From positions 1 to 59,030 of IMG/VR virus record IMGVR_UViG_3300043775_003319: DNA of 59,030 nucleotides; one strand, 5' to 3'. Shown piece by piece: positions 26,224-54,854 of the stretch (within the stretch, counting starts at the first letter, position 1; each line of letters opens with the position of its first letter). This DNA comes from a virus. Its lineage: Duplodnaviria > Caudoviricetes. The translations under genes were made by a program, and so were the position numbers. Below the pieces are notes generated by a model. It was given only the letters and a program-made list of their open reading frames with translations. It ran no database searches and was not told the origin of the DNA.

Positions 26224-26231
26224 TATATTTG
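26224..26231 (+). promoter_or_regulatory. Bacteroidota-type -7 promoter element
   Basis: TATATTTG directly after a terminator and about 20 nt before the ATG at 26253. Confidence 0.6.
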
Positions 26232-26252
26232 TATAACTTTAAATCATGTATT

Positions 26253-28845: not shown

Positions 28846-29949
28846 ATGGCATTAACTGAACCACAATATAGAACTTTTGATGATCTTTTAGACAGTGTAA
28901 AAATTGATTTATATACATGGGATCTTGAAGGATTAATAACACCACAACAACTTATTAAAGTTGCAATACGTGTAAATTATGATTTAGGATTACGTATTAA
29001 TCAGTCGCGTTCTAAAGCAATTGAAATACACAAAGGAAAAGGAAAGCTTCCTCAAGACTTTTATGTATTAAATTTTGGATTAGTTTGTGAAGAACATTAT
29101 ACTGAAGAAATACCTACATATAATAAAACATACACTGAAGGTATTTTAGAAGGTGTTACTCTTGCTCAAAATTTTTTAGCAGATAAATTTGTTAATCAAT
29201 CTACTACCATAATGGATATTGTGCAAGGCATTAATATTATTAATCATCAATTACATACGCAAAACATTATTGTACAAGCATTTGGTTCTGACGGTGTAGC
29301 GTTAGATTTTGATATTAATATTATTGATTCTGAAAACATAAGTATTATATCCGAATCAAGTGTTACTATTACAAATGTTAAAGTAATAATAATGGGTGCA
29401 AAAATTAGTACAATGGGTACTGGTTCAGGTTCATGTCCTGCTTTACTTGATTGCACTGCAGATGGCACACCTCGTGTTCATTATGTTACAAATGGAAAAA
29501 GAACAGATAGCAAAAGTCTTATTCCTTTAAGAATGCAAAAATCTAAATCTATATCTGATGATTGTTTTAATTTAAACGCAAAAGGAAGATATGACGCATA
29601 TTTAAAAAATGGATTTATTCATACTAATTTTGATGAAGGTGTTATTTATATTAATTATCAATCTTTAATGGAAGATGATGATGGTAATTTACTTGTATTA
29701 GATCATCCTTATTGTAATGAGTATTATGAATATGCATTAAAGCAACGTGTTTATGAAAATTTATTTATGAGTGGTGAAAGTGTTTCCAATCATTTACAAC
29801 TTATGGAACAAAAGTTAAGAGGAGCACGTGCAAACGCTTTATCATTTGTAAACACTCCAGATTTTGCAGAAATGAAAAAAGTTTGGGAAATGAATAGAAA
29901 AGCACAATATCATAATTATTATAACATGTTTAAAAGTTATATGTACTAA
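28846..29949 (+). CDS. Tail ring/tubular protein with an internal insertion
   Basis: LPQDFY...YLKNGFIHTNFDEGVIYINY...DDDGNLLVLD; directly precedes the stabilisation gene. Confidence 0.7.
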   Translation: MALTEPQYRTFDDLLDSVKIDLYTWDLEGLITPQQLIKVAIRVNYDLGLRINQSRSKAIEIHKGKGKLPQDFYVLNFGLVCEEHYTEEIPTYNKTYTEGILEGVTLAQNFLADKFVNQSTTIMDIVQGINIINHQLHTQNIIVQAFGSDGVALDFDINIIDSENISIISESSVTITNVKVIIMGAKISTMGTGSGSCPALLDCTADGTPRVHYVTNGKRTDSKSLIPLRMQKSKSISDDCFNLNAKGRYDAYLKNGFIHTNFDEGVIYINYQSLMEDDDGNLLVLDHPYCNEYYEYALKQRVYENLFMSGESVSNHLQLMEQKLRGARANALSFVNTPDFAEMKKVWEMNRKAQYHNYYNMFKSYMY

Positions 29950-35683: not shown

Positions 35684-36625
35684 ATGGCTTGCACATGTCC
35701 AGATCCTAGTTGTACACAAGTAGTAATCAATAGTATTACATATTGTGATTGCGTTGTTAGTGTTTCTCCACAAATATGTCCTCCAGGATGTATTACAAGT
35801 GTTGAAACAAACGAGTGTTTATGTACAGAAACAGTTGATCCTATTAGTAATCCTGTATTAATACCTATTGATATTAAAGATTATTTAGAAGAAATTCGAT
35901 GGACAATAAGTTATGATCCAAAAATAAAAACATGGTTATCATTTCATGATTGGCATCCTGAATGGCTGGTTCCTTCTTTTAATCATTTTTTAACAATTAA
36001 GACTACAGGTTCACAAACACCTGTTACAAAAATTTGGAGACACAACGTTAGAAAAGATAGTTTTGCAAATTACTATGACCAAAATTTTCCATGGGAAATA
36101 GAATTTCCTATTGTAACACCGAACACAATAACAACCTTGAGAAGTTTTGAATATACACTTGATGTGTATAAATACTTTAACAATGGTAAAGATTTTAATC
36201 ACGCATTAGATGAAAACTTTGATAGAGCTATTATTTATAATTCTGAACAAAACAGTGGGTTATTAAAATTAAATTTAAAATCAAAAAATAATCCTTTGTC
36301 TTTATTAAATTATCCAATCGTTAATAATTTTGATATTGATATACAGTACAGCAAAGAAGAAAATAAGTTTAGATTTAATCAATTTTACGATGTTACTAAT
36401 GATAGAGGTGAGTTTTCAGGAAACAATGTTCCGATGTGGGTGACACAAGAAGATGGTTATCATAAAAACTTTAACGTTCCTTATTATAATTTTAACAAAG
36501 CGCCTTTAGAGCATAAAAAGTTTAGACATTATGGTAATAAAGTCATTTTGCGAAAAAACATAAGCAATGATAAAAAAATGATTCTTAAATTTGTTAATAA
36601 TAAATACTTAATAAGTCCAAGGTAA
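35684..36625 (+). CDS. Probable C-terminal part of the stabilisation protein encoded as a separate gene
   Basis: After a Cys-rich leader it continues with WTISYDP...WLSFHDWHP...FDRAIIYNSEQNSG...FRFNQFYD. Confidence 0.7.
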   Translation: MACTCPDPSCTQVVINSITYCDCVVSVSPQICPPGCITSVETNECLCTETVDPISNPVLIPIDIKDYLEEIRWTISYDPKIKTWLSFHDWHPEWLVPSFNHFLTIKTTGSQTPVTKIWRHNVRKDSFANYYDQNFPWEIEFPIVTPNTITTLRSFEYTLDVYKYFNNGKDFNHALDENFDRAIIYNSEQNSGLLKLNLKSKNNPLSLLNYPIVNNFDIDIQYSKEENKFRFNQFYDVTNDRGEFSGNNVPMWVTQEDGYHKNFNVPYYNFNKAPLEHKKFRHYGNKVILRKNISNDKKMILKFVNNKYLISPR

Positions 36626-39600
36626 TGGCTACAAACAAAGACATATTGATGAAATTCATCACAGGACAAGTTGAAAAAACTCGTCAGGATGTATCTGAAA
36701 AAGGATATAAAGATAATTCACCTTATAAAAACAATCCTTCAAACACTATTTATGGTACACCGGAAGGAACATCTATAACAATGAAAGGTGTGAGTACTCC
36801 TCTTATTGGTATAGATGAGTTTGGTAATAAGCAATACATGGAGCCTGGACAAGAATATTTCTTTCCAGGTTCTCAAGTTACCGAAACACCTTTTGCAAAA
36901 TATGGAGGATTGCTTAACAAAACAGTTACATGTTCTAATTGCGGTTGGTCATGGAAAGCTGCTAATGGAGGTAATGATGTTTCTACTTGTCACAAATGTG
37001 GTAATGAAAACAAAATAATGCAAACAGGTGGTGAAGCGGATTTTAACAAAGTAAAAGAATGGTATAATAATTATATAGATTCGCCACTGTATAAAAGAAA
37101 TTTAGAAAATTCAGGATACCCTGATGTTGACAAAGTAATTGAACAAAGAAAGTCAAATATAGGTAAAACAGAATTTTTAAATGATGAAAACAAATTTGGT
37201 ACATACTACCAACCTAATACTAATGTAATTCATTACTCTCCTGAAAAAGATTCAGAAATTTGGTCTAAAGATTATGATTCTGTTTTACCAACTGATTCTG
37301 TATTAGCACATGAATTTGGACATGCTGTTTTAGATAATAGTAAAACTTTTTTTGGAAGACAGACACCTGCTTATAATAGATACGACTATCAACAATTAGA
37401 GTCAAGAAATAAAGATAGAAAAATATCAAGAGGCGCTAATGAAAACTATGCTGATCAAAAAGCGTTACAATACGAGGCTGCAAAACTTAACATTTATAAA
37501 CCTGGTTATGAAGAGTTTACAAAAGAACATTTAGAAGCATTACCTTCTGATGTTAAAGAAAGAGCTTTAAAAAATTATTCAGAAGAAGATCTTATTTGGT
37601 TAATGAACAACATTGCTCAAAATGACAATGATGTAAATAATAATTTATCTCTTGCTCAAACAGGAGGTGAGCAAATGTTCAATGTTTCATTAAATGAACC
37701 AATGATAATACCTTCTCAAGGCAGTTATCCTTTAAGTTATAAAGATAGAGGTGATAGAGATACTGATGGCACTTTGTTTACATCTGCTAAAAAAGTAAGT
37801 AGAGTAGATGAAAATGGTAAACCTTTATCTGCACCTCAGATTAGAGAAAATCAATTAATGTGGAATATGCAAAAACTTGCGTATAGTCCTTATCAACAGT
37901 CTTTTAATATTTGGAAAAACAATGCTCAGAATAGTGCTCAAGGTTTTTATAATCCTCGTGAGTACTCTAAATATTTAAGTAAAATAAATTCTGGTCCTGA
38001 TGTAGGATTAGATGGATTATGTGATCCTAATTTTTCATCTACTAAATGTGGTACTTCTAAACAACATGCAAAGGAAGATAAAAAAGAATGGTCTAAAAAA
38101 CAATTTGGAGGTGACTTATACTCAGATTATAATCTTCCTATTGCTCAAGATGGCGGAAGAGCTACAAGAGCTGATAGTCTTGCTTTATATAATAATAGTG
38201 TAAAAGTAGAATCTTATTATAATAATAAAAATTATAAAAATGATCATGTAAATTATCATCAAAATCCTTATGCTCATAAAATGAATGATGATGAAGTTAA
38301 AGAGTTTAAACATAGAGGCAGCAGAGCCCAAGTTCCTACTAAAAACAATGAATCAACAGAAATTAAACTTCCTAATAACATTTATAGAAAAGATATAGAT
38401 AAAAATAAATATTTACAAAGAGAATTGGCTACTAGGATTTTAGACACTCGAGCACCAATGCAATTATTTGATAGAAGAATAACCCCAACATCTTTTAAGT
38501 CTTTTAAAAATATTAATGAAAATGATATAATGGATGGAGATGCTATAACTTTATCTGGATATGATCCTATTTCTGTAAAACCATTTGATTTATTGACAGA
38601 AAAAGAAAAAAAACTTAGAATTGAAAGATATGGTATGGATGGTGTACCTAAAAGTTATTTATCTAAAAAATCAATAAAAAAAGAAACAGATAAACCTATT
38701 AAAGTTAAACCAGAACTGCAACCAAGAGTGGAAGCTATAAACTTATCACTAATGCAAAATCAAGATCCATCGTTCCCTAAACAAGAACTGGATTTGATAA
38801 GACCTATACAAGCTCCTAAATCTTATAATGTTAATATGCAAAGATATAACATGAAAGGACCTAGTGATTATTATCAAGCTAATGAAGAAGGTGTTGATTA
38901 TCAAAGAGCTATGGAAATCAAAGCTGCTTCAGATGCATATAACAAATACATACAAGAAAAGTATGGTAATGAAGATGCTCTTAAAAATCCAAAAGCTGTA
39001 GAGAGATTAAAACAGTTAAGAAGTGAATTTAACATAGAATCTAATTATAAATTTGGAGGAGATTTGTATCAATATCAAAACGGTTCTCAAACATGGGATA
39101 AACAAAAACAAAATCTTAAAAATGAAAAATTAGAAAAATTAAAAAGATTATTAAGTTTACCAGATCCTGTTTTTAAAGCAAAAACTTTTGAAGAAAAAGT
39201 TGCTGAAAAAATGGAACAAGAAAAATATAAAACTACTTCTAAAGATAACACTACTGTAAGAAATTATAATAATGCTAATAAACATTCTAATGCTGCAAGA
39301 AATAAAACAAACAAAGAATTTGCAGATGAAAGACAAGCAAAAATAGATGCACAAGTTCAAGCAAACAAACAACCTTTTGATTGGAACAATTTTAGACAGT
39401 CTTTGTCAGATAGAAGTCAGGCAACAGGAGATGCTATGAGAATATCAAATGAACCTAACTTTTTTGATGATTATATAAATCCTGCAGTAATGATAGGAAG
39501 TATGGCAGATAATTTAGGTCAGGCACCTTTAAGAGCGCAACAAGAAGATTCTTATATGCCTTATGTAACATCTGTTGGAGCACCTTTGCTTACAGGTGCT

Positions 39601-42357
39601 TTAGCAGGAATTGGTACAAAAAATACAGGTCAGTTTATAAATAATGTAGTTAATCCTTTAGCAGGATTTGGAATTAAAAAAGGAACGGTCAAAGGTGAAA
39701 TACCTAAAATAGGAGATGACTTTGCAAATGCTATTCATAATCTTGATGGAGATAAAATATTTTATGATACTACTGACACAAGTAATTTTTTAAAAGGTGA
39801 ATGGAAATATGTAGATGAGTTACCAAATGAAGGAGGAATTTCAGAAGTAGAGCCTTTTAATAATGCACTTGACGAGCTAATTGTTAAAGCAACATATGCT
39901 GAAAAACCTTTACTTACAAAAAAAGACTTTTTTACAAATAAAGAACTTGTCGATAAAATAGCAAAAGAACGCAGTTATTGGGATAAGTTTTTTAAATTTT
40001 CTGATGAATATCCTTTAAGTGATGCTGATATGGTATTTGACAAAAAATTTCCTGAACTTAAAGCTGGCAGTTTTAAAGAAAAGTTCATGACACCAGAACA
40101 ATATAATTATGCAAAATCTAAATTAGGTATATTTGGCGATCTTGGACATCAAGATATTACAAATCCTACAATATTTAAAAAACAATTAGATTCAAATTGG
40201 AATAATGCACAAGCATTTGATGCTCAAGATTTTCAAAATGCATTACGTAATACAATTTTTGAAAGAACAGGTAAAATTAAAAATGCAAATCCTGATTATT
40301 TAAAATCTCTTATAAAAAGTGATGAAATATTAACACCTGAACTTTTAAATAGAATGGGAACTATGGAAAATTATACAGGTAATCAGGCTTTTAAAACTTT
40401 AAATGCCAATAAATATGGAGGTATTATTAACTTTTTACAAAAAGCACAAGAAGGAACAACTGTTACCGTAGATCAAGGTGATGGTATTAAAAAAAAAATA
40501 TTAACCGATTCAAGAGAATATTCTGATGCGTACAATGAAGGCAGAATTGGTGTAAAAAATGATGACGGAAGTATTTCTTTTAATCCTTTAAATGAAGTTG
40601 TTGTCACTCCTTATGATAAAGAATATCCTTTTTATCAAGAATTATCAGATGAAGAAAAGAAATATTTTAATGATGATACTCCAATAGGAAGAGCTGTTAG
40701 AAGAAAAGCATATACAAAAAATTCATTAAGTGACGATGTAACAGATATTGCAGCTCCTATATTATATGGAACTGCAGCAGCAATGCTTGCACCATATGCA
40801 TTAGCTCCACTTGTAGCAGGATTAGAATTTGCAGGTGCTGCAGCTGCTCCATACGTTGAAGGAGCATTAGCAACTTCTTTACCAGGTATGTCTTCTATTC
40901 CAGGAGCTACTGTTGGTAATGCTATTAATGCAGGTTTTGCAGGACATGGTTTATATAATATTGCACCTGATGCTGTAGAAATGTATAATAATCCATCTTG
41001 GAGTAATGCAGGTAATGTAGGAATGGATGTTTTAGAAATTGCACCTGTTGCAGGACCTGCAGGAAGAATGATAGGTGAAGGAATATCAACTGTAGGAAGA
41101 ATGCCAAAACAACTACCTGGTTCTAGTACTGTTGATTATGCTAATTCTATAAAAGATGTTGTTACAACATTTAAAAATAGAAATAAAAAATTATTAACTG
41201 TTGGTGCTGAAAATTTAGATAAAGAGTTGTTAAAAAAAATTGAACAACTTGAGTCTCCTGAAGGATTTAGTAGATTAGTTACACAAGAAGCTGAAATGTT
41301 AAAAAGAGATTTTCCTTTATTAGAACGCATAATAGATGTAGAAAAAAAAGCAGTCAGCAATGCTCATACAAGAATTTCAGAATTGTATCAAACAGCTTTG
41401 CAGGGAAATTTTAACAGAAATTATTTAGAAGCTAAAAAATTAAATCCTGGATTAACACCAAAAGAATTTGGAATACCTACAAATAATGCGTTTTTTAGAC
41501 AGGGTTTAGGTTCAAGTAATTATTCAGATAATGCTCTTAATTTAAGTAAAGAACCAAGTTTAAGAGATAATGTTTTTTCAAATACATATTATAATGCTGA
41601 GCTTCCTGGAGAAATAGCAATTGGTAGAGAGTATGCAGAAGCAATGCCTGTCTATGATCATGAAATAAATCATGCTTTACAAAATAGTAGAAATACTACT
41701 TTAGATGATTTACTTAGAAAATATTTTAATAATTCAGAAAACTTATCAGAAAACTTATCAGAAAAAACAAAAAAGGCATATAATTATTTTAGAAAAAATA
41801 AAGTTGGCATGCCTTCAAGAGAACCATCATCATTTTTAGCTGAGGCAAGAAGATCAATGTTAGAAAGAGGATTAATAAAAGATATCTATGAACCAATTAC
41901 TCCTAAAAAAGTTTTTGAGGCAATGAAACATTTTAAAAAAGAACCTTATATAAATCCTTATACTGAACAATCATATCATAGATTATTTGATTTTGCTGAT
42001 GATCATCCAAAAACTTTGAAATTTTTATCAAGCATGTTTAACAAGCTTCCTGCAGCAGTTCCTGTTGGTTTGGCAGTAAGCGCTGCATCTCAAGCAGAAA
42101 CAAAAAAAGAACCTGTTTCAGGAATGAAAAAAGGAGGTGTGACTAAATTGTCAGAACTTGATAAATTAGCAATACAAGAGTTAGGTGGAATGTTACATGT
42201 AAATGATAAATTACCACATGAACAATCGATAGTAAAATATCTTGGTCCTGAAAAATCTGTTTTAAATTTTATGAAACAAAAAAAAGCAATTGGAGGTTTT
42301 GTACCTTTTAACGAATATTACAGAGAAAACATTATAAATCCAAGAAATAAATCGTAA
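36625..42357 (+). CDS. Large modular virion cargo-type protein with two HExxH modules, a zinc ribbon and GG linkers
   Basis: 1910 aa; HEFGH at 37309, HEINH at 41659, CxxC...CxxC near the N-terminus, and about ten xxGG motifs. Confidence 0.8.
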   Translation: MATNKDILMKFITGQVEKTRQDVSEKGYKDNSPYKNNPSNTIYGTPEGTSITMKGVSTPLIGIDEFGNKQYMEPGQEYFFPGSQVTETPFAKYGGLLNKTVTCSNCGWSWKAANGGNDVSTCHKCGNENKIMQTGGEADFNKVKEWYNNYIDSPLYKRNLENSGYPDVDKVIEQRKSNIGKTEFLNDENKFGTYYQPNTNVIHYSPEKDSEIWSKDYDSVLPTDSVLAHEFGHAVLDNSKTFFGRQTPAYNRYDYQQLESRNKDRKISRGANENYADQKALQYEAAKLNIYKPGYEEFTKEHLEALPSDVKERALKNYSEEDLIWLMNNIAQNDNDVNNNLSLAQTGGEQMFNVSLNEPMIIPSQGSYPLSYKDRGDRDTDGTLFTSAKKVSRVDENGKPLSAPQIRENQLMWNMQKLAYSPYQQSFNIWKNNAQNSAQGFYNPREYSKYLSKINSGPDVGLDGLCDPNFSSTKCGTSKQHAKEDKKEWSKKQFGGDLYSDYNLPIAQDGGRATRADSLALYNNSVKVESYYNNKNYKNDHVNYHQNPYAHKMNDDEVKEFKHRGSRAQVPTKNNESTEIKLPNNIYRKDIDKNKYLQRELATRILDTRAPMQLFDRRITPTSFKSFKNINENDIMDGDAITLSGYDPISVKPFDLLTEKEKKLRIERYGMDGVPKSYLSKKSIKKETDKPIKVKPELQPRVEAINLSLMQNQDPSFPKQELDLIRPIQAPKSYNVNMQRYNMKGPSDYYQANEEGVDYQRAMEIKAASDAYNKYIQEKYGNEDALKNPKAVERLKQLRSEFNIESNYKFGGDLYQYQNGSQTWDKQKQNLKNEKLEKLKRLLSLPDPVFKAKTFEEKVAEKMEQEKYKTTSKDNTTVRNYNNANKHSNAARNKTNKEFADERQAKIDAQVQANKQPFDWNNFRQSLSDRSQATGDAMRISNEPNFFDDYINPAVMIGSMADNLGQAPLRAQQEDSYMPYVTSVGAPLLTGALAGIGTKNTGQFINNVVNPLAGFGIKKGTVKGEIPKIGDDFANAIHNLDGDKIFYDTTDTSNFLKGEWKYVDELPNEGGISEVEPFNNALDELIVKATYAEKPLLTKKDFFTNKELVDKIAKERSYWDKFFKFSDEYPLSDADMVFDKKFPELKAGSFKEKFMTPEQYNYAKSKLGIFGDLGHQDITNPTIFKKQLDSNWNNAQAFDAQDFQNALRNTIFERTGKIKNANPDYLKSLIKSDEILTPELLNRMGTMENYTGNQAFKTLNANKYGGIINFLQKAQEGTTVTVDQGDGIKKKILTDSREYSDAYNEGRIGVKNDDGSISFNPLNEVVVTPYDKEYPFYQELSDEEKKYFNDDTPIGRAVRRKAYTKNSLSDDVTDIAAPILYGTAAAMLAPYALAPLVAGLEFAGAAAAPYVEGALATSLPGMSSIPGATVGNAINAGFAGHGLYNIAPDAVEMYNNPSWSNAGNVGMDVLEIAPVAGPAGRMIGEGISTVGRMPKQLPGSSTVDYANSIKDVVTTFKNRNKKLLTVGAENLDKELLKKIEQLESPEGFSRLVTQEAEMLKRDFPLLERIIDVEKKAVSNAHTRISELYQTALQGNFNRNYLEAKKLNPGLTPKEFGIPTNNAFFRQGLGSSNYSDNALNLSKEPSLRDNVFSNTYYNAELPGEIAIGREYAEAMPVYDHEINHALQNSRNTTLDDLLRKYFNNSENLSENLSEKTKKAYNYFRKNKVGMPSREPSSFLAEARRSMLERGLIKDIYEPITPKKVFEAMKHFKKEPYINPYTEQSYHRLFDFADDHPKTLKFLSSMFNKLPAAVPVGLAVSAASQAETKKEPVSGMKKGGVTKLSELDKLAIQELGGMLHVNDKLPHEQSIVKYLGPEKSVLNFMKQKKAIGGFVPFNEYYRENIINPRNKS
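41734..41765 (+). repeat. In-frame 12-nt tandem repeat (SENL-SENL-SEK)
   Basis: tcagaaaactta repeated about 2.7 times. Confidence 0.8.
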
Positions 42358-42407
42358 ATTAACAATGTAAACATGTGATTATAAACATGTAACTAAAATT
42401 TTATATT

Positions 42408-43934
42408 ATGAGTAAAACTTGTCATGATTGTGGAAAAGAATTTGCAATGCCGTTAGCGTATTACATAAATCCTTTGACAATTGTCAAAACTGGTGGAGAA
42501 ATGATTAAACGTGCAGATGGCTCTTATTCAAAAAGAGGTCTTTGGGATAACATACGTGCAAACAAAGGTTCTGGAAAAGCTCCTACTAAAGAGATGCTTG
42601 AACAAGAACGTAAAATAAAATCTAAACAAATGGGTGGAGATTCTCAAAATGAAATTGTTAAGTTGATTAAAATGTATGCTCAAATGCATAATGTTGATCC
42701 TCAAGTTATTGTGCAAAAATTACAAGAACTTGATGAGTATCAGCAAGAACAAGCATTACAGTCAATGGTTGCAGAAATACAACAAAACAGTGGTGCAGAA
42801 CAAGAAGCACCTATGTCTTATGCAAATAATGATGAAAATACTGAAATGCAATCTTATCAAGTAGGAGGCGCTTATGATTATAAGACAACAGGAGGATATG
42901 GATATCGAGGAGCTGCAGGTATAGGTGAAGGAATGCCTAATATATTACCAGCAATAAATACTGTTGCTTCTGGTGATTCAGATTTAGCAGGAGGAATAAA
43001 AGCTATAACTGGAGTGTTAGGACTTGCATCAGGTTTAGCAGGTTCAGCTTTAGGATATGGAAAATCAGCACAATGGGTTGGTAATAAAATAAAACCTGGA
43101 AGCAACATATTAGAAAAAACAAATAACACTTTAAGAAATGTTGTTGACTTTGGTGTTGATGCAGGTTATGGTTATCCTTTAAATAGAAATGATATTTCTA
43201 AAACAAACAATAACACACCAAATCCATACATTGATTATTCTAAAGTGTCAAATACAGACTTTACTAAAATGCCTGTATACAATGATAATCCTAATCATAA
43301 AAATACAATGGTAGGTAAATATGGAGGGTATCTTCCTAAACATCAAGGAATTATTCCAGGTGTTTCTAGCACAGTAGGCGATGGATCAGCAGGAATGATG
43401 ATGAACGATGGTTCTGCTAATTACAATGATGGATATTATCAAGCATATACACAAGACAATAATGCTTATAATAAAGTTGATTATAATAAACAATACATGA
43501 ACATGTCTTTAAAAGATGAGCAACTAAAAAAACAAAAAGATACTACTTTTAATAAGGTTTCTGACAACAATGGTTCTGACTTTAGTGGTATGGAATATGC
43601 TCAAAAAGCCATTACAGGTCTTGGTTCTTTCAATAGTTATTTAGACTGGAGAGAAAACAAAAGAAGACAAAGAGATTATGAAGACATGTTAAAAACAACA
43701 GGTAATACTGATTTTAGACTTGCTTCAAATGCTCCAAATCCTTATGGTAATTACACACTTAACGTGGGACCTGCAAATAATTTTCAATTAGGTATGACAA
43801 CTCCTATTCAGGATTTTGGTACTACTGCAAAATATGGTGGACAAGCATTTGCTGAAGGTGGAGAATATCAAGTATCAGAAGATGAATTATTACAACTTAT
43901 GCAGAACGGTGCTGAGATTGAATTCGTCAATTAA
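42408..43934 (+). CDS. Cargo-type protein with GG linkers and a Gly/Ala-rich hydrophobic segment
   Basis: 508 aa with KTGG, QMGG, QVGG, two KYGG and AEGG motifs. Confidence 0.8.
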   Translation: MSKTCHDCGKEFAMPLAYYINPLTIVKTGGEMIKRADGSYSKRGLWDNIRANKGSGKAPTKEMLEQERKIKSKQMGGDSQNEIVKLIKMYAQMHNVDPQVIVQKLQELDEYQQEQALQSMVAEIQQNSGAEQEAPMSYANNDENTEMQSYQVGGAYDYKTTGGYGYRGAAGIGEGMPNILPAINTVASGDSDLAGGIKAITGVLGLASGLAGSALGYGKSAQWVGNKIKPGSNILEKTNNTLRNVVDFGVDAGYGYPLNRNDISKTNNNTPNPYIDYSKVSNTDFTKMPVYNDNPNHKNTMVGKYGGYLPKHQGIIPGVSSTVGDGSAGMMMNDGSANYNDGYYQAYTQDNNAYNKVDYNKQYMNMSLKDEQLKKQKDTTFNKVSDNNGSDFSGMEYAQKAITGLGSFNSYLDWRENKRRQRDYEDMLKTTGNTDFRLASNAPNPYGNYTLNVGPANNFQLGMTTPIQDFGTTAKYGGQAFAEGGEYQVSEDELLQLMQNGAEIEFVN

Positions 43935-44030
43935 TAACAAAATCAGAAACAAAATAGGAAAAAACAAATTATATTTGTAAATTCTAAATGTGATAGATTT
44001 ATCATTTTTAACTTTAAACTTTAAAAGTTT

Positions 44031-47000
44031 ATGTACAATATTAGAATAAAACAGCTACCAAAAAATGGTGATCAACGTAATTATAGTTTAGTTGACAGAA
44101 ACGATTTATATATTAAAGTAAATCCTGTTAATAGTGATTCCAATGTGAAAAACACTATTAGTGCAGTTCCACGCGATGAGGCTAACATAGAAGCAGAAGG
44201 TGGTGAAACTGTAATAGGTGATATTAATAACGATGGTTTTTTAGAACATAGTAAAATTGTTGGTAAAAGACATACTGAAGGAGGTGTTCCTTTAAATGTT
44301 GCACCAGGTTCTTTTATATTTTCTGATACTAAAAAGTTAAAAATTAAAGATCCCGAAGTGCTTTCTATATTTGGAATATCAAATGTTCCAAAAGGGGGAA
44401 TAACTCCTGCAAAAATTGCACAAAAGTATCCAATGAATAATTACATGAATACCATGAAAAGCAATGAGTCGGATCCTATTGCAAAACGCACTGCTACTCA
44501 AATGATGAAAAATAATCTTGAGAAGTTAGGAATGCTTGCATTAGTACAAGAATCAATGAAAGGTTTTCCTGATGGTATTCCTGCAATTGCTGAATCTGTT
44601 ATGGCAGGATTACAAGGACAGCAATCACCTGGTCAAGAACAAGGTGGAGGCAGTGCGCGTGAATCAATGGAAGGTGCTGAAAATGAAATGAAATATGGTG
44701 GTGGTTATTACCAGAATGCTGGAACAACAAAAGAAAAACAAAAAAATAAAGTAACTTCTGCTGGCAATCCTGTTGAAGGATTTAAGTTTTATAATGGAAT
44801 CACACCTGTTACAGTAACAAAAGTAAACAAAGAATATGGTGTTGAAAATCCAAACAGTCCTTATATTGAATTAAGTAATGGTGAAAGATTGACTAAAAAA
44901 CAATTTGAACAATTACTAACAAAAGGTTATTATAATTATATCCATGGTGGAATCGGTGATGTTTATACAATAAATCAAAACATACAAAAAAGAACTCTTA
45001 AAAATTCCAGCGGCAATACTGTAAAAGGTTTTGATTTGTATTCAGGTGATAAAATAAATTTTAAAGGAAATGATTATACAGTTGTAAATCCTTACGCTGA
45101 TAATTCACGTGGTTATTATGACACAATGAAACCTTTAAGAGATATGTTTGATAATACTCAAGGTATTGTTCAAGTAAGAAATAATAAAACTGGACAATAT
45201 GAGTATATCGAAGGAGAAGATTTAGCAGATGCTTATGTTTTTGATAACTCACAAGTTCCTATTTTACCAAATGAAAGTTTTAGAACTGCTTTTAAAAACA
45301 ATCAAAAACGAAGTGTTACTAATCCTGGATATGATGTTGTAAGTCCTTCATATGCATCGCAAAATAAACAAGTTTCTTACACACCTTCTGCAAATAATAC
45401 TATAAATGTAACTGGTGAAACTAATTTGCAACCTTTGGATACAACAACTGTAGTTAATAAAAAACAAGTTGTAAAGGATAACGTTCCTGTCAAAACTGCA
45501 AAAAATACATATACACCACAACGTTCTTCAAATACAAATATTGCTCCAAAAACAAATACTACAGCACCTGTTGCAAAACCTGCAGGTGTGACTACTGAAT
45601 ATGTAGATGATGAGTTTGAATATGGTGGCACTTTACCAAAACATCAAGGAACACAACCTGGTGTACCGAGTACTGTACAAGGACCTGGACCTAGTGATAA
45701 AACAATTGTTAAATGGCAAATTAATAATAAAACAGGTAATAAAAGACCTGTGTATTCTGATGGAACTTTTGGTGACATTGTTCAGTATGATGTTGCTGAC
45801 AAAGATCTTAGAACAGAAGTATCCGGCAAAGGATACGAGTTTATAGATTTAAAACCTGAGTTTAGATATCAAGGTACAACTGTTGGACATCAGACTGCAG
45901 AATCAGGATATAAAGTAGATAATGAATCAGGATTTTTATATAAAGATATTAAACCTGGAACTGCAGGTTTAGAAAATTATATGGAAATTCATTCTGATGC
46001 AATTAACGCTTTTCCAGGTGGTGCAGAAGCTTGGAAAAAAACTATGTTGGCAACACCAGGAAAAGAAAATCCTGCAATGACTCATTTGTTAAATTATCAA
46101 AACTCAGCTATTGGACTTTTATCAGGAGACAAACCATACGTAGATTTAAACAAACCAGGTGCATTAGTACCAGGTGTTGAAAACTTTAATTTACCAGGTG
46201 TTAGAAAAAAACCTGCACCTATTGAAATTCCTAAAAATAAAGAGGAAGAAATTATTGTTAATAAAATAGAAAACAAACTTCCTGTAAAAAGAAGAAGACC
46301 TTGGTGGATACAAGATTCAATGAACTACGCTGCAGCAATGACTGATATTATTAATTATTATCCTCCTGCAATGAGTAGAGTTGATCTTGAAACTCCTGGT
46401 TATGTTATTGAAGATCCTGATAGACAAATTGCAGCAATGCAAGAAATGGGTGCAAGAGCAACAGAAGCTGCTATGAATAGTACAGCAGGAAATGTTGCAG
46501 GTGCATCTTTAGCAGCTCAATCTGATCAAAGACTTGGTCAATCAGCAAATATAATTGCAGGTGTTGAAAATAGAAATGCTCAAATTGTTAATCAAGCTCT
46601 TGGAAGAAATGCTCAAATTACAAATCAAGAATCAATTCTTAATGAAAATGCTAAACAAAAATACATTGCAGACTCTGCAATAGGTAGACAAAATTATGAC
46701 AATGCTTTACGCGAACTAAAATATAGAAAAATAAAAGCATGGAACAATGGTACTACAAATTGGATGCGTCATAAACAAATGGAAGATGTATTGTTTCCAA
46801 ATGTTGGTATTGATTCTATTACAGGTGATGTTTATTTTCCAGGTGGAAGACAAGCATTTGATGCTCAAGGTAGAGAAGTATATGATCCATACATAAATCC
46901 TGCAAATCCTAATGACACATCTTCTTTATCAAAAAGAAATTTTGAAGAAAGATATAATTATTGGACATCTAAAGGTTTATCTCCAGAAGACGCTTCTCGC

Positions 47001-47183
47001 AATGCTCATTATGAAATAAATAAACAAGGTGCGGCTACAGGTTCTAAATCTGATTATGGTCAATACATGGCTGCTAATCAAACATTACCACAAGAAACAA
47101 AATACGGTGGAAGAATAAAAAAACAATATGGAGGTGTTGTATTTGATTTTGGTGCATTACCTTTGTATTTCTTTGAAGATTAA
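44031..47183 (+). CDS. Cargo/ejection-type protein
   Basis: 1050 aa; N-terminal EAEGGE...GKRHTEGGV...FIFSD domain; KYGG, EYGG and QYGG linkers; Q/N/A-rich helical C-terminus. Confidence 0.8.
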   Translation: MYNIRIKQLPKNGDQRNYSLVDRNDLYIKVNPVNSDSNVKNTISAVPRDEANIEAEGGETVIGDINNDGFLEHSKIVGKRHTEGGVPLNVAPGSFIFSDTKKLKIKDPEVLSIFGISNVPKGGITPAKIAQKYPMNNYMNTMKSNESDPIAKRTATQMMKNNLEKLGMLALVQESMKGFPDGIPAIAESVMAGLQGQQSPGQEQGGGSARESMEGAENEMKYGGGYYQNAGTTKEKQKNKVTSAGNPVEGFKFYNGITPVTVTKVNKEYGVENPNSPYIELSNGERLTKKQFEQLLTKGYYNYIHGGIGDVYTINQNIQKRTLKNSSGNTVKGFDLYSGDKINFKGNDYTVVNPYADNSRGYYDTMKPLRDMFDNTQGIVQVRNNKTGQYEYIEGEDLADAYVFDNSQVPILPNESFRTAFKNNQKRSVTNPGYDVVSPSYASQNKQVSYTPSANNTINVTGETNLQPLDTTTVVNKKQVVKDNVPVKTAKNTYTPQRSSNTNIAPKTNTTAPVAKPAGVTTEYVDDEFEYGGTLPKHQGTQPGVPSTVQGPGPSDKTIVKWQINNKTGNKRPVYSDGTFGDIVQYDVADKDLRTEVSGKGYEFIDLKPEFRYQGTTVGHQTAESGYKVDNESGFLYKDIKPGTAGLENYMEIHSDAINAFPGGAEAWKKTMLATPGKENPAMTHLLNYQNSAIGLLSGDKPYVDLNKPGALVPGVENFNLPGVRKKPAPIEIPKNKEEEIIVNKIENKLPVKRRRPWWIQDSMNYAAAMTDIINYYPPAMSRVDLETPGYVIEDPDRQIAAMQEMGARATEAAMNSTAGNVAGASLAAQSDQRLGQSANIIAGVENRNAQIVNQALGRNAQITNQESILNENAKQKYIADSAIGRQNYDNALRELKYRKIKAWNNGTTNWMRHKQMEDVLFPNVGIDSITGDVYFPGGRQAFDAQGREVYDPYINPANPNDTSSLSKRNFEERYNYWTSKGLSPEDASRNAHYEINKQGAATGSKSDYGQYMAANQTLPQETKYGGRIKKQYGGVVFDFGALPLYFFED

Positions 47184-47204: not shown

Positions 47205-49817
47205 ATGGCAACATTTTTAAAAGGAGTTACTGATGAGTTTCCACAAATGGATCTATATAAACCTGATTATAGTTTTCTTACACAAGTGTACGGAACTCGT
47301 CAAGGTGAATATGACCGTGGATTTGAGTATGTAAAAAATATAGTTAATTCTGCGTTAAATGATCAGTTAACTTCTGAATCAAATGAAGAATTTCGTAAAC
47401 AAGTATTTAAAAAAATACAAAGTTCTTTAAAAGATATTTCAAATTTAGATTTATCAAATCCTGCAAATATTAGTATTGCAAATTCAATAGTTGATCCAAT
47501 TACACAAGATAAAGAACTTGGTCGTGATATGGCATTGACAAAATTTTACAATAGAGAAATTGGTAAATATAATGCTTTGAAAGCAAGTGATGATCCTAAA
47601 AAAAGAGCACTTGCAAATGATTACAGCATGGCATATATGAACTATGGTATTAATGAATTAAAAAATGCTAAACGCGGTGATGGTAGTATATTAAATGCAC
47701 AACCAAAAAACTTTGTACCATTTGAAGATGTTACAGGATTTCTTGAACAACGTGTAAAAGATTTAAAATTAGAAATTGTTCAAGACAAAGTGCATGGTTT
47801 TTATAAAGTAAAAGAAACAAACGGTGTTGATGCAGGAATACCTTTTGCATTATGGGCAAAAAATGCATTAGAATCAGATGGTAGATTTAATGAACAGCTA
47901 CGTGTCATGGGATTTGTTAATGCAGAAAATGACATTAGACAAGAAATGGAAACAGGTAAAATTTCCAGAGATCAAGCATTGCAAATGGTTGCTAAAAAAT
48001 TAGAAAAACCTGTAACAGAAGAAGTTAAAAAAACCGAAATGCAGTCTAATTTATCATTAGCAGATGTTAAAGAAAAAATTGAATTGTTTGATAGAGAATA
48101 TCCTAATGGAGTACCAGCATTAAAAAAAACATATTATGATGATTTGATGCGTCAAAAAACACAATTAGAAAAAACAGCAGGTAATGCATCAAAAGACTTT
48201 TCTGATGTAACGAAAGGTGGATACGAATACATTGCTCAAAACATGCATAATATTTATAAAAATAATGCGTTAAACAAAATAGCATTAGATTGGGGTAAAA
48301 ATCACGCAAAGGTTACTGCAAAAGTTGAGATTGATCAGGATGATGTGGCAATGAATTTGTATAAAATTAAAGTTGATACAAGTTTAGCATATGCTAAAAT
48401 GAATCAAGATAAAGAACTTGCTTTTATGAAAATGGCGCAAGATGAAAAGATAGAAAATGCAAAATTAGAACTAGAAATAAAAAAGGCAGGTGCAAAAGGT
48501 GAACTACCTGTAAGCACAATTATTGGTACTTCTCAAACAACAGGTTCTATTCCTGCTGTTGATATTTTATCTGAGTCATTGGTAACTACTCGTAATGAAA
48601 TATTTTCTGACGCTTTTGATCCAAAAGATGGAGCATTAAACATTGTTGTTGGTGGAGAAAATTCTGGTAAATTTTATTCAGTAATGGACAAGGTTAAAAG
48701 AATTGCAAACAACAGTAATGAAAAATTAACTCCTGATGAATTAAAACTACTTGGTACTCTTGGTGGACACGCTGGGGTACAAGTATATAATCCTAATTCA
48801 CCAAAACTTGCTCAATCAACAATTGATGCATTAGCTGTAGGTATACATAATAAAGCAAGAAAAATTATACCTGTTCTTGCAGCACAAGGAAGTGTTCAAG
48901 ATTATAAACAACAAGTGTATATTTTAAACAACATGATGGGTAAATTTGATCAAGCTCTTTCTCAAAAAGAACAGATTGAACAAAATTATGAAAATATAGC
49001 AAAGGCAATATTAAACCCAGATGGTTCTGTAAAAGAAACATATGAAGGAAACGTAAAAGTAGTAGGTTATACTAGCAATAATTATCCTATTTTTGATTTA
49101 TCTAAATTGTCAGAAGCACAGAAAAAAGGATTAAGCATTAGAGTTTCTCCTGAGTTTAACAAACGTACAACAGGTACTACAATTACAAGATTGAATACAG
49201 GCGTTACTGCTGATGAATGGGGTAATATTTTTGGAGCAGTGGCTGCTGAAAGCGCAAGTGATGCATCTGTATTTACAAAATTTGCCAACATGAACAACAA
49301 GGCAAGAGCTGAAATGTTAGGTAACGAGTATGAAGTAAGCAGTGATCCTGTTGCTGAAACTGTAAAAATTACAGTAAGAGCTAAAAATGATAAAGAAAAA
49401 GAAGCTACAGCACCTTTAGTTGTAACTATACCATTTGAAACAATTAGCACAAATCCTTCGTTATCAAGATTTAAAAAATTTGTTAAAGAATCTACAATGA
49501 ACAAAACATCTCTTGGTGATTTTAACTCTTTGTTTCAAAATCCAACAGGAACAATAAATGCTAAAAAAACAATTAAAGATACAGGTTTTGATTTTACTGC
49601 TACTGGTAATTATGACAGATATGGTAACTATTCAGTTTCATATAGTACAAAATATTGGGATCCTGTAAAAAACAAATGGGTAAATTCAGGTGTCGATTTT
49701 ATTCCTATGAATGGTCCTGATGATGTTGATGGAATAATAGCATTAGATGAACATATTAAAACACAGTACGAAACTTATATGACTGCGTTAAAAACAATCA
49801 ATAGTAAAAAGAAATAA
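47205..49817 (+). CDS. Large helical virion (cargo-type) protein
   Basis: 870-aa ORF in the cargo block; function inferred from position. Confidence 0.75.
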   Translation: MATFLKGVTDEFPQMDLYKPDYSFLTQVYGTRQGEYDRGFEYVKNIVNSALNDQLTSESNEEFRKQVFKKIQSSLKDISNLDLSNPANISIANSIVDPITQDKELGRDMALTKFYNREIGKYNALKASDDPKKRALANDYSMAYMNYGINELKNAKRGDGSILNAQPKNFVPFEDVTGFLEQRVKDLKLEIVQDKVHGFYKVKETNGVDAGIPFALWAKNALESDGRFNEQLRVMGFVNAENDIRQEMETGKISRDQALQMVAKKLEKPVTEEVKKTEMQSNLSLADVKEKIELFDREYPNGVPALKKTYYDDLMRQKTQLEKTAGNASKDFSDVTKGGYEYIAQNMHNIYKNNALNKIALDWGKNHAKVTAKVEIDQDDVAMNLYKIKVDTSLAYAKMNQDKELAFMKMAQDEKIENAKLELEIKKAGAKGELPVSTIIGTSQTTGSIPAVDILSESLVTTRNEIFSDAFDPKDGALNIVVGGENSGKFYSVMDKVKRIANNSNEKLTPDELKLLGTLGGHAGVQVYNPNSPKLAQSTIDALAVGIHNKARKIIPVLAAQGSVQDYKQQVYILNNMMGKFDQALSQKEQIEQNYENIAKAILNPDGSVKETYEGNVKVVGYTSNNYPIFDLSKLSEAQKKGLSIRVSPEFNKRTTGTTITRLNTGVTADEWGNIFGAVAAESASDASVFTKFANMNNKARAEMLGNEYEVSSDPVAETVKITVRAKNDKEKEATAPLVVTIPFETISTNPSLSRFKKFVKESTMNKTSLGDFNSLFQNPTGTINAKKTIKDTGFDFTATGNYDRYGNYSVSYSTKYWDPVKNKWVNSGVDFIPMNGPDDVDGIIALDEHIKTQYETYMTALKTINSKKK

Positions 49818-49823
49818 CAAGTC

Positions 49824-54836: not shown

Positions 54837-54854
54837 ATAAACAAAATCACTTTT

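What the first reader, a model, noticed from the sequence alone, without database searches (positions are those of the whole stretch)
36625..47183. Di-glycine linker code dividing three consecutive cargo proteins into modules (candidate polyprotein processing or packaging system)
Seen: the motif [K/Q/E]-x-G-G recurs at apparent domain boundaries. In 36625..42357 the GG positions are FAKYGG 36904, MQTGG 37027, AQTGG 37663, KQFGG 38107, AQDGG 38152, YKFGG 39055, NKYGG 40417, MKKGG 42133 and KAIGG 42292. In 42408..43934 they are VKTGG 42492, KQMGG 42633, YQVGG 42864, GKYGG 43323, AKYGG 43836 and FAEGG 43857. In 44031..47183 they are MKYGG 44697, FEYGG 45624, TKYGG 47106 and KQYGG 47130. The segments between them look self-contained (a zinc ribbon, an HExxH domain, a basic peptide). 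The two following large proteins show no comparable series. Established: ASFV polyproteins are cut at GG-X and adenovirus protease cuts (M/L/I)xGG-X. Inference: these ORFs are polyproteins of swappable effectors released by a GG-specific protease, or the motif is a capsid-loading tag.
Basis: partly seen in the sequence, partly recalled or inferred. Interest (0 to 1): 0.85.

Follow-up and report, generated by a model that had tools for sequence, protein, structure and literature searches.

The report
Gly-Gly joints between phage cargo modules
Three neighbouring genes of a crAss-like phage encode proteins built from small interchangeable modules that are joined by a conserved short motif ending in two glycines, which may be a cutting site but has not been shown to be cut.

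Summary
All 19 listed positions are exact. [KQE]xGG occurs 20 times in the three ORFs against 4.3±2.0 in shuffles (0 of 2000 reach it) and once in 9,981 residues of the other non-RNAP ORFs. The window is a crAss-like phage. By position the three ORFs are its cargo genes.

The motif is broader than written: hydrophobic, then A/K/Q/E/R, any residue, G, G. It recurs in six related phage loci. Its glycines are invariant or nearly so in 27 homologues, and whole cassettes are inserted, lost or moved between motifs. Homology breakpoints fall on it. Single modules exist elsewhere as separate genes. Predicted models place it in low-confidence joints.

Cleavage is not shown. No Ulp-, adenain- or prohead-type protease was found. 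The only candidates are three HExxH stretches in the cargo genes; the first has a metallopeptidase fold. In ΦcrAss001 gp45 the solved portal-bound piece runs through a terminal GG.

Best reading (0.4): junction sites of polyvalent cargo proteins, cut after ejection. An uncut joint is nearly as likely (0.35).

The parts
36625..42357 (+). Cargo ORF 1 (P0001, 1910 aa): mosaic polyvalent protein with 12 GG sites. It is a fusion of what are two separate ORFs in relatives L004 (1746+856 aa) and L006 (1338+672 aa).
36625..36909 (+). ORF 1 module aa 1-95. It holds an N-terminal helix (2-26; the start resembles the start of the separate second ORFs of relatives) and a beta domain (40-89), and ends in AKYGG.
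   Evidence: A3 invariant columns
36910..37032 (+). ORF 1 zinc-ribbon cassette aa 96-136 (CxxC...CxxC), ending in MQTGG. It sits at another position in L006, L007 and L010.
37033..37668 (+). ORF 1 zincin-like metallopeptidase module Z1, aa 137-348 (HEFGH at aa 229), ending in AQTGG. It matches the C-terminal end of PHROG 24249.
37669..38157 (+). ORF 1 module aa 349-496 (ends KQFGG) plus a 15-aa spacer ending AQDGG (aa 511).
38158..39060 (+). ORF 1 module aa 512-812, ending in YKFGG. It exists elsewhere as a stand-alone ORF of 345 aa (P0231) with its own leader and tail.
39061..39672 (+). ORF 1 module aa 813-~1016, the most widespread module. In at least 10 representative proteins it starts a separate ORF. 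Its C-terminal boundary carries no GG.
39673..40422 (+). ORF 1 module aa ~1017-1266, ending in NKYGG, with an internal PNEGG.
   Evidence: (HSP 1019-1266 to L006)
40423..42138 (+). ORF 1 GG-free stretch aa 1267-1838, with a Gly/Ala-rich hydrophobic region and a second HExxH (HEINH at aa 1679). It ends in MKKGG.
42139..42354 (+). ORF 1 C-terminal short segments (QELGG, KAIGG) and a conserved 19-aa tail after the last GG.
42408..43934 (+). Cargo ORF 2 (P0002, 508 aa). It has 8 GG sites. The model is mostly low-confidence, with a helical mini-domain at 79-127, a hydrophobic helix at 192-224 and a conserved C-terminal tail.
42498..42638 (+). ORF 2 basic cassette aa 31-77, between VKTGG and KQMGG. 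It is present, absent or elsewhere in homologues, and is also a stand-alone small gene.
43863..43931 (+). ORF 2 C-terminal tail aa 486-508 after FAEGG. It is the most conserved part of the family.
44031..47183 (+). Cargo ORF 3 (P0003, 1050 aa). The conserved N-terminal domain (aa 1-~225) ends at MKYGGG. The middle is variable. The C-terminal part is conserved, with TKYGG, KQYGG and a 15-aa tail.
47205..59030 (+). Three following large ORFs (870, 1670 and >1392 aa), by synteny with ΦcrAss001 the RNA-polymerase block. They have no [KQE]xGG, and GG is under-represented (5 against 11.3).
57915..57929 (+). Third HExxH (HEAFH, aa 1021 of the ORF starting at 54855). The same YHEAFH word occurs in ΦcrAss001 gp47 at aa 2157.

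Best explanation
What it is. The three ORFs are the virion-cargo (ejected) proteins of a crAss-like phage. They are built as polyvalent 'beads on a string': autonomous modules ranging from about 40-aa mini-proteins to 200-570-aa domains, joined by a conserved junction motif. The motif reads hydrophobic (M/Y/F/A), then A/K/Q/E/R, any residue, Gly, Gly, often followed by Glu.

Shown here:
- The motif is specific to these genes.
- It is conserved across related phages even where the sequence between motifs is replaced.
- It lies in predicted unstructured joints.
- It is the place where modules are inserted, deleted, moved, fused and split into separate genes.

Inferred mechanism:
- The chain is loaded and ejected as one polypeptide. 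It would be held by conserved terminal peptides and by a portal-binding domain like the one solved in ΦcrAss001 gp45; homology to that domain was not shown here.
- After ejection, the co-delivered zincin-type metallopeptidase domains refold and cut at the Gly-Gly junctions. Candidates are two HExxH sites in ORF 1 and one in the RNA-polymerase block; only the first was modelled.
- Cutting would free the small effectors: a basic mini-protein, a zinc ribbon and others.
For: Specificity: 20 against 4.3 expected in the trio, 1 in the rest of the window. Six related loci repeat the enrichment; 0-11 of 1000 shuffles reach the observed count.

Conservation: the GG columns are invariant or at least 90% conserved in 27 homologues of 35-73% identity. 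Cassettes appear and disappear exactly between them.

Breakpoints:
- 23.3% of 14,645 partial BLAST HSP ends fall exactly on a GG end, against 2.1% for random placement.
- P0001 HSP limits at 136, 348/349, 814 and 1266 match GGs at 135-6, 347-8, 811-2 and 1265-6.
- 55% of 129 match starts in the representative search lie within 10 aa of a GG, against 13.8%.

Shuffling: cassette families of fixed length have 13-18 different neighbours on each side.

Autonomy of modules:
- The basic cassette is a complete stand-alone gene of 49-57 aa (P0346, 48 member sequences).
- P0001 modules exist as separate ORFs with a short leader ending in GG and a common tail after the last GG.
- The P0001 junction YKFGG corresponds to an ORF boundary in L004.

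Asymmetric residue preference upstream of GG (positions -3 to -1) and only E downstream. This is what a protease site typically looks like (established knowledge, not tested here).

Joints are low-pLDDT coil, and only 1-2 of 9 motifs follow a predicted helix.

Protease candidates: HExxH at P0001 aa 229 and aa 1679, and at aa 1021 of the 54855 ORF. Residues 130-335 align to M13 endopeptidases at Z 8.1-8.9 (171-180 aligned, rmsd 4.4-5.2) and to M34 and M1 peptidases at Z 5-6.8.

GG is under-represented in the co-packaged giant proteins of this clade. The 1600-aa family has 15 against 40.6 in 7 relatives. The 1604-aa and 4014-aa ORFs of G001 have 3 against 15.2.

Prior published predictions:
- Zincin peptidases process polyvalent proteins (PMC5512222, passages read).
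- crAss-like RNAP-block polyproteins are 'likely cleaved' (preprint 10.1101/2020.03.07.982082, passages read).
Against: No cleavage datum exists for any of these proteins.

In ΦcrAss001 the paper gives the portal-bound gp45 piece as residues 425-552. In the sequence this range begins at AFGG, the end of a recognisable cassette, and contains two more GGs. Those junctions are therefore intact in the mature virion. This is why cutting is placed after ejection. The authors treat gp45 as one chain bridging tail and capsid.

The strict [KQE]xGG motif is not enriched in gp45 (2 against 2.46). Only the broader pattern is enriched (10 against 4.63; 27 of 2000 shuffles), and that pattern was chosen after seeing the logo.

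The ΦcrAss001 RNAP-block proteins show no GG depletion (16 against 19.5). phi14:2 shows the motif only weakly.

GG depletion rests on homologous proteins, which are not independent.

Some GGs lie inside domains: the three-part module that holds DUF5754 is always in the same order, as are the zinc ribbon and the N-domain of P0003. One major boundary has no GG.

Very short spacers between tandem motifs (5-15 aa) are odd products for a protease.

The fold match is of middling strength. Foldseek found nothing at E <= 0.001. A shared fold shows neither activity nor specificity.

No known GG-specific protease family was found.
Confidence: 0.4

Rival explanations
1. Uncut joint. The motif is a structural punctuation mark: a domain terminator plus a Gly-Gly swivel. 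It lets small, independently folding beads be packed, threaded through portal and tail, and refolded. Modules recombine at it because only junctions in such joints give working proteins. Nothing is cleaved.
For: - Motifs lie in low-confidence coil between predicted folded units.
- ΦcrAss001 gp45 is described as a single chain with parts in tail and capsid, and its solved portal-bound piece crosses junction GGs.
- No dedicated GG protease was found.
- Tandem motifs with 5-15 aa spacers fit a joint better than a cleavage product.
- Position -2 prefers good helix formers A/Q/K/E/R.
Against: - A mere hinge does not need conserved residues at -3 to -1, nor invariant double glycine across 35%-identical homologues.
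- Only 1-2 of 9 motifs follow a predicted helix.
- Leaders of 5-17 aa ending in GG at the very start of stand-alone ORFs have nothing to hinge.
- The same cassettes work as free small proteins elsewhere.
- GG depletion in the co-packaged giant proteins is not predicted.
Confidence: 0.35
2. Maturation cleavage inside the procapsid. The ORFs are polyproteins cut at GG during head assembly by a phage protease, as in T4-type or jumbo-phage heads or adenovirus cores. Peptides are left in the capsid.
For: - The evidence for a recognition site is the same as above.
- Conserved terminal leaders and tails next to the outermost GGs resemble removable targeting peptides.
- The basic cassette could act as a DNA-condensing peptide (inference).
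Against: - No prohead protease: the ORF between portal and capsid protein is an acidic scaffold-like protein with no Pfam family below E = 0.1 (best 0.16, unrelated families).
- The major capsid protein, scaffold and portal carry no series of motifs.
- The gp45 junctions at 427-448 are intact in the mature ΦcrAss001 virion.
- Published text on ΦcrAss001 mentions no processing: the words cleav*, proteoly* and protease give 0 hits in the main text.
Confidence: 0.1
3. Docking or loading motif. The short aromatic/Met-x-x-Gly-Gly word is itself a repeated binding peptide, for scaffold, portal, tail lumen, DNA or for self-association in the cargo zone. It sets the loading or the order of ejection.
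For: - The motif stands at the very N-terminus of stand-alone ORFs, where neither a hinge nor a cut has an obvious use.
- Tandem copies occur.
- The resolved pieces of gp45 that contact tail ring and portal begin 4 residues after a motif and at a motif.
Against: - No partner is identified.
- The motif is in regions that are disordered in models, and mostly unresolved in the ΦcrAss001 map as described in the text.
- The conserved terminal tails are better candidates for docking than the GG word.
Confidence: 0.1
4. Chance or composition: G-, K- and Q-rich linkers give the pattern without any function. Alternatively it is a DNA-level signal such as a recombination site.
For: The trio is somewhat G-rich (6.3-11.2% G).
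Against: - 0 of 2000 composition-preserving shuffles reach the count.
- The pattern is replicated in six related loci.
- GG columns are invariant among diverged homologues.
- Codons at the motif (GGA 31, GGT 26, GGC 3, GGG 2) follow the background, and the flanking codons differ, so there is no nucleotide motif.
Confidence: 0.01

Closest known systems
Polyvalent proteins of phages and conjugative elements (Iyer, Burroughs, Anand, de Souza, Aravind 2017, PMC5512222; passages read)
   Same: - Very large proteins delivered with the DNA.
- Many unrelated domains in one chain, with extensive mosaicism.
- Zincin-like metallopeptidase as the hub domain, predicted to process the chain.
   Different: - That paper's main text has no occurrence of 'glycine', 'linker' or 'crAss', so no junction motif is described there. 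Its supplementary files could not be seen.
- Here many modules are mini-proteins of 40-70 aa without Pfam families, and the junction has a defined sequence.
Crassvirales cargo protein C1 (ΦcrAss001 gp45) and C2 (gp46) (Bayfield et al. 2023, PMC10172136; passages read)
   Same: - Same genomic position, between the tail genes and the RNA-polymerase block.
- gp45 is GG-rich (20 against 11.6).
- It carries one of the same cassettes.
- Its two resolved pieces (214-245, 425-552) lie between motifs.
   Different: - No significant BLASTP similarity of P0002 or P0003 to gp45 (best E 0.47).
- gp46 has no motif series.
- The paper treats gp45 as an uncut chain and does not mention the motif.
GG-X processing by adenain, ASFV pS273R or Ulp-like cysteine proteases (as quoted in the finding; recalled knowledge)
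   Same: Cutting after Gly-Gly with a hydrophobic residue upstream would produce core peptides from polyproteins inside or for a virion.
   Different: - No such protease gene was found.
- The hydrophobic position is one residue further upstream.
- These are viruses of eukaryotes.
Prohead-protease processing of internal and ejection proteins in T4-like and jumbo phages (SPN3US papers seen only as listing and abstracts; otherwise recalled)
   Same: Packaged ejection proteins carry targeting propeptides and are cut at a short consensus during head maturation.
   Different: - The consensus ends in Glu, not Gly-Gly (recalled).
- A dedicated prohead protease is encoded, and none was detected here.
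Double-glycine leader peptides cut by C39 peptidase domains of ABC exporters (listing and abstract seen; otherwise recalled)
   Same: Stand-alone module ORFs start with a 12-17 aa amphipathic leader ending in GG.
   Different: - No C39 peptidase was found.
- The motif is internal and repeated.
- The proteins are virion cargo, not exported peptides.

Membership tests
Crassvirales (crAss-like phage) structural module | Tail ring proteins, portal, large terminase and HK97-type capsid protein of crAss type | tested here: met
   - PF25702 CrAss_Ring_2, E 2.2e-22, at 28166-28837.
- PF24228 CrAss_Ring_1, E 1.9e-10, at 28846-29949.
- PHROG terminase, portal and major head protein.
Polyvalent protein (Iyer et al. 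2017) | Several unrelated domains in one very large phage-encoded polypeptide, with mosaic architectures among relatives | tested here: met
   P0001 modules occur in different orders and combinations, and as separate ORFs, in relatives.
Polyvalent protein (Iyer et al. 2017) | Zincin-like metallopeptidase domain (HExxH plus a downstream Glu helix) | tested here: met
   - HEFGH at aa 229 and HEINH at aa 1679.
- Model residues 130-335 align to M13, M34 and M1 zinc peptidases at Z 5-8.9.
- No Pfam model matches, and Foldseek gave no E <= 0.001. Membership is therefore at fold level only.
Polyvalent protein (Iyer et al. 2017) | Packaged in the virion and delivered with the DNA | not testable with these tools
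   Inferred from gene position relative to ΦcrAss001 gp45/gp46, which were detected in virions by MS.
ΦcrAss001 cargo protein C1 (gp45) family | Sequence homology to gp45 | tested here: inconclusive
   - BLASTP best E is 0.47 for P0003 and 4.6 for P0002.
- phmmer of P0003 against PDB chains, which include gp45 (7qog_M), gave no hit.
- One shared cassette type was seen by eye only.
Adenain/Ulp-type GG-X polyprotein processing | CE-clan cysteine protease encoded by the virus | tested here: not met
   - PF02902 gave 0 of 5 related records at E <= 1.
- Pfam scans of 40 ORFs of G001 (87% complete) and of 28 window ORFs list no such family.
- The window itself is an incomplete genome, so absence is not proven.
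Adenain/Ulp-type GG-X polyprotein processing | Consensus (M/L/I)-x-G-G with the hydrophobic residue at P4 | tested here: not met
   In 1,526 GG sites of 120 homologues the hydrophobic preference (M 22%, Y 16%, F 8%) is at -3 from the first G, which is P5. P4 is A/Q/K/E/R.
Adenain/Ulp-type GG-X polyprotein processing | Demonstrated cleavage after GG | not testable with these tools
   No proteomic data exist for this phage. The ΦcrAss001 text indicates an intact chain across GG 427-448.
Prohead-protease maturation (T4 gp21 or HK97 type) | Protease gene in the head module | tested here: not met
   The only ORF between portal and capsid protein (13348-14613) is acidic and helical-looking, and its best Pfam matches are unrelated families at E 0.16-0.41, all below their cut-offs. 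No S49, S77, S78 or ClpP family appears in any scan.
Double-glycine leader / C39 system | C39 peptidase and a single N-terminal leader | tested here: not met
   No C39 family appears in the Pfam scans. The motif is internal and repeated 5-9 times per protein.

The most novel reading that the evidence does not exclude
Crassvirales cargo proteins are true polyproteins written in a junction code. A hydrophobic-x-x-Gly-Gly word is read by the zincin peptidases that travel with them, after ejection into the host. Cutting releases an interchangeable arsenal of mini-proteins. One of these is a ~45-aa basic protein that is also a free-standing gene in more than a thousand metagenomic proteins. Any small phage gene could be made an injected effector simply by fusing it in frame behind a GG junction. 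If so, the tail-bound and portal-bound pieces of ΦcrAss001 gp45 might be, or might become, separate fragments.
Probability: 0.3. Interest if true: 0.85.

Novelty: new variant of a known kind. Interest (0 to 1): 0.62.

Why it matters
crAss-like phages are among the most abundant viruses of the human gut, and how they load and deliver their protein cargo is open. A 2026 paper on N4 still calls for structures of crassvirus ejection proteins.

A defined junction motif does three things:
1. It gives a rule for parsing these otherwise unannotatable giant proteins into functional units. No Pfam family matches any of the three ORFs.
2. It turns the long-standing prediction that polyvalent proteins are processed by their zincin domains into an experiment with named sites, in a cultured system (ΦcrAss001 gp45).
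3. It shows a route by which small phage genes become injected effectors and are exchanged between phages.

If the motif turns out to be an uncut joint, it still defines the module grammar of this protein class.

Tried and rejected
- tblastn of P0003 and P0002 against 50,697 deposited phage genomes: no match. No annotated close relative was available.
- phmmer/hmmsearch of P0001, P0003 and alignment A1 against PDB sequences: nothing.
- Pfam on the three ORFs: no family. PHROGs: only P0001 aa 124-341 to a 'tail protein' family.
- Protein Atlas for P0002: best score 0.78, below the level that means anything.
- Complex prediction of the Z1 module (137-348) with zinc and P0002 1-80: 'no answer', score 0.00. 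It says nothing either way.
- Foldseek of the P0001 1-520 model against PDB: no match at E <= 0.001. Only the VIA second look gave usable Z-scores.
- Search for a second ORF with the same leader in one genome among the loci held: only one found, in L029. 'Same leader on several cargo genes of one phage' is therefore not shown.
- Helix C-cap idea: the models show a helix directly before the motif in only 1-2 of 9 cases, so it was dropped as a general explanation.
- DNA-level signal: rejected.
- Literature: searches found no paper that links crAss-like phages with a Gly-Gly motif. One search asked for at least 3 of 6 terms and none of the 9 papers held a crAss term. Yutin 2021 (PMC7886860) has none of the words protease, peptidase, polyprotein, zincin or cleav* in its main text.
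- Supplements and figures were not available, so three things could not be checked and may bear on whether gp45 is full length in virions: the gel band assignment of gp45 in PMC6235969 (bands of 15 to >300 kDa), and Extended Data Fig. 3 and Extended Data Table 3 of PMC10172136.

Full report
**Setting.** The window is the whole record held (59,030 bases). It is an AT-rich, one-strand gene array.
- It encodes a large terminase, a portal and a major head protein of PHROG families.
- It encodes crAss tail ring proteins 1 and 2: PF24228 at E 1.9e-10 and PF25702 at E 2.2e-22.
- It encodes a 1904-aa tail protein with Ig-like and Fib_succ_major domains.
- The three ORFs of the finding follow, and then three more large ORFs of 870, 1670 and >1392 aa.
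- The order matches ΦcrAss001: tail genes, then cargo proteins gp45 and gp46, then the RNA-polymerase block gp47, gp49 and gp50.
- The three ORFs are therefore, by position, the cargo (ejected) proteins of a crAss-like phage. Sequence homology to gp45 could not be shown.

**The observation.**
- [KQE]xGG occurs 20 times in the 3,468 residues of the trio. Shuffles give 4.29±2.01, and 0 of 2000 reach 20.
- It occurs 0 times in the next three ORFs (3,932 aa) and once in the remaining 23 ORFs (9,981 aa).
- GG itself is only mildly enriched (31 against 20.2). The signal lies in what precedes the glycines.
- In 1,526 GG sites of 120 homologues of the second ORF the preferences are as follows:
  - position -3: M, Y, A or F;
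  - position -2: A, Q, K, E or R;
  - position -1: Y, E or M;
  - position +1: E.
- These sites are related to one another and are not independent.
- The codons used are ordinary, and there is no nucleotide motif.

**Replication in relatives.**
- Related loci from a viral contig collection (L003, L004, L006-L010) carry the same gene order. The motif series sits in the same genes and not in the downstream ones.
- In six loci the strict motif exceeds shuffles; 0-11 of 1000 reach the observed count.
- More distant crAss-like lineages (L019-L029) show it too.
- It is weak in Cellulophaga phage phi14:2.
- In ΦcrAss001 gp45 the strict motif is not enriched (2 against 2.46). GG is enriched (20 against 11.6; 4 of 2000), and so is the broader pattern with A or R at -2 (10 against 4.63; 27 of 2000). 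That broader pattern was defined after seeing the logo.

**The motif marks module boundaries.**
- Alignment: the second ORF has 679 homologues at E <= 0.001 among the 8,000 candidates scored in the near-length search.
  - Whole cassettes come and go exactly between them. After the first GG some homologues have a Cys-rich cassette, some the basic cassette, some both, some neither.
  - One homologue has the basic cassette at another place, and two have four further cassettes.
- Distant hits are strings of mini-modules, each ending in the motif. Among them are DUF5754, a YkuD domain and DUF3597.
- Clustering: 146 proteins were cut at GG.
  - This gave 1,131 segments of at least 25 aa, in 216 clusters.
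  - Cassette families have narrow length ranges and 13-18 different neighbours on each side.
- Counter-example: one three-part module that holds DUF5754 always keeps its order, so some GGs are internal to a domain.
- Breakpoints among these proteins: partial BLAST matches end exactly on a GG in 23.3% of 14,645 cases, against 2.1% for random placement.
- Mosaic of the first ORF. Matches to relatives stop or start at residues 136, 348/349, 814 and 1266, next to GGs at 135-6, 347-8, 811-2 and 1265-6. The zinc ribbon sits elsewhere in three relatives. The ORF is a fusion of two ORFs that are separate in L004 and L006.
- Representative search. A profile-free search of 1.84 billion representatives with residues 1-1200 gave 2,472 hits.
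  - Among the best 150, 55% of match starts lie within 10 residues of a GG, against 13.8% by chance. For match ends the figure is 28%.
  - The commonest end, near 1010-1022, has no GG, so the rule is not absolute.
- Stand-alone modules. Several hits are separate ORFs equal to one module. They have a 12-17-aa leader ending in GG and a shared tail after the last GG.
- The basic cassette is also a complete gene of 49-57 aa in many contigs. The short-protein search gave 1,923 hits, and P0346 has 48 member sequences. Some copies begin with a 5-11-aa leader ending in GG.

**Structure.**
- The model of the second ORF is mostly low confidence (mean pLDDT 41.6). It has one helical mini-domain (79-127), a hydrophobic helix (192-224) and a long helix (394-431). 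All motifs lie in low-confidence coil.
- The model of residues 1-520 of the first ORF has folded units at 40-89, 97-113 and 137-327. The motifs at 94-95, 135-136 and 347-348 fall in the dips between them.
- Residues 130-335 align to the catalytic domains of zinc endopeptidases: M13 neprilysin/PepO at Z 8.1-8.9 (171-180 residues, rmsd 4.4-5.2), M34 at Z 6.3-6.8 and M1 at Z 5-6. Foldseek alone gave no match at E <= 0.001.
- With HEFGH at residue 229, this supports a gluzincin-type peptidase fold.
- A second HExxH lies at residue 1679. A third (HEAFH) lies in the last ORF of the window, in the same word as in ΦcrAss001 gp47.

**Search for a protease.**
- Peptidase_C48 was not found in five related records.
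- Pfam scans found no processing protease. They covered 40 ORFs of an 87%-complete relative (G001) and 28 of the window's ORFs. The only peptidase was an M15 lysin-type domain.
- The ORF between portal and capsid protein looks like an acidic scaffold.
- The only protease candidates are therefore the zincin domains inside the cargo proteins. This agrees with published predictions for polyvalent proteins (PMC5512222) and for crAss-like RNAP-block proteins (preprint 10.1101/2020.03.07.982082).
- Neither text mentions a Gly-Gly junction in the passages and word counts I saw.

**For and against cleavage.**

For:
- Residue preferences are one-sided.
- The modules are autonomous.
- Junctions are equivalent to gene boundaries.
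- Stand-alone ORFs carry leaders and tails.
- Peptidases are co-packaged.
- GG is under-represented in the co-packaged giant proteins of this clade. The 1600-aa family has 15 against 40.6 in seven relatives, and G001's 1604-aa and 4014-aa ORFs have 3 against 15.2. The 870-aa family (20 against 22.3) and the rest of G001 (70 against 82.3) are normal.

Against:
- In ΦcrAss001 the paper gives the portal-bound gp45 domain as residues 425-552 and the tail-bound helix as 214-245. In the sequence, 425 is two residues before the GG that ends a recognisable cassette, and 434-435 and 447-448 are further GGs. These junctions are uncut in the virion.
- The ΦcrAss001 polymerase-block proteins show no GG depletion.
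- Tandem motifs only 5-15 residues apart would give tiny products.
- No direct data exist.

**Weighing.** I place any cutting after ejection and give that reading 0.4. An uncut joint gets 0.35, procapsid maturation 0.1, a docking motif 0.1 and chance 0.01.

**Comparison with the known.**
- The proteins meet the sequence-level features of polyvalent proteins. They occupy the place of the Crassvirales cargo proteins.
- They fail the tested features of adenain/Ulp-type, prohead-protease and C39 systems.
- What is new is a defined junction word and a repertoire of exchangeable mini-cassettes. This is a new variant of a known kind.
- My literature searches found no description of it.

**Verdict.** The protease part is unproven and in one respect contradicted for the virion stage. 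Interest 0.62.

Noticed in passing
window 49824-59030; G001 ORFs (L013-L014) of 1604 and 4014 aa: GG dipeptides are under-represented in the giant proteins that follow the cargo genes. The window's three ORFs have 5 against 11.3 in shuffles. The 1600-aa family in 7 relatives has 15 against 40.6. The 4014-aa ORF has 1 against 9.0. The 870-aa family and the rest of the proteome are normal. ΦcrAss001 gp47, gp49 and gp50 show no such depletion (16 against 19.5).
   Followed up: partly
window 57915-57929 (aa 1021 of the ORF from 54855): A third HExxH (in the word YHEAFH) lies in the polymerase-block protein. The same word occurs in ΦcrAss001 gp47 at aa 2157. It is probably the zincin-like domain mentioned for phi14:2 gp65 orthologues in the 2020 preprint.
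   Followed up: no
window 36625-36700; L004 7380-; L006 7932-: The first ~17 residues of P0001 (a predicted helix) resemble the N-termini of the separate second ORFs of relatives. In P0001 that second part is fused and lacks the peptide. This may be a shared N-terminal loading or assembly signal.
   Followed up: partly
proteins P0188, P0255, P0256, P0318; L027 9209-11698: In another lineage the N-terminal leader and the C-terminal tail of cargo ORFs carry the same short word (W-L-D/N-K/N-Y type), as if genes had been split within a junction element.
   Followed up: no
proteins P0276-P0395: The ~45-aa basic cassette of P0002 (aa 31-77) is very widespread as a free small gene of 49-57 aa: 1,923 short hits. 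It is highly conserved (70-95% identity), has no Pfam family and its function is unknown.
   Followed up: partly
window 35684-36625: A 313-aa protein with a Cys-rich N-terminus lies directly upstream and overlaps the start of P0001 by one base. Similar Cys-rich ORFs stand at the same place in L022, L009 and L007. It matches the C-terminal part of PHROG 37948.
   Followed up: no
window 43323-43385 and 45624-45686: P0002 and P0003 share a short paralogous stretch that begins right after a GG (the Y/T-LPKHQG...PGV...STV type).
   Followed up: no
window 23437-26136: An 899-aa structural-region protein has spondin-like TSP1 domains and beta-propeller repeats (PF19028, PF17164). It carries a series of V-G-G-T/E/N-F words that differ from the cargo motif.
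   Followed up: no
window 2277-2591 (-), 4132-4824 (+), 26229-27521 (+): A thioredoxin and a PhoH-like ATPase lie upstream of the terminase. A DNA-repair-exonuclease/metallophosphatase-like gene sits inside the structural block.
   Followed up: no
ΦcrAss001 gp45 (L018 11988-14516): Both gp45 pieces resolved in the published virion structure are framed by GG motifs. Piece 214-245 starts 4 residues after FSAYGG. Piece 425-552 starts at AFGG and ends 10 residues before FAYGG.
   Followed up: partly
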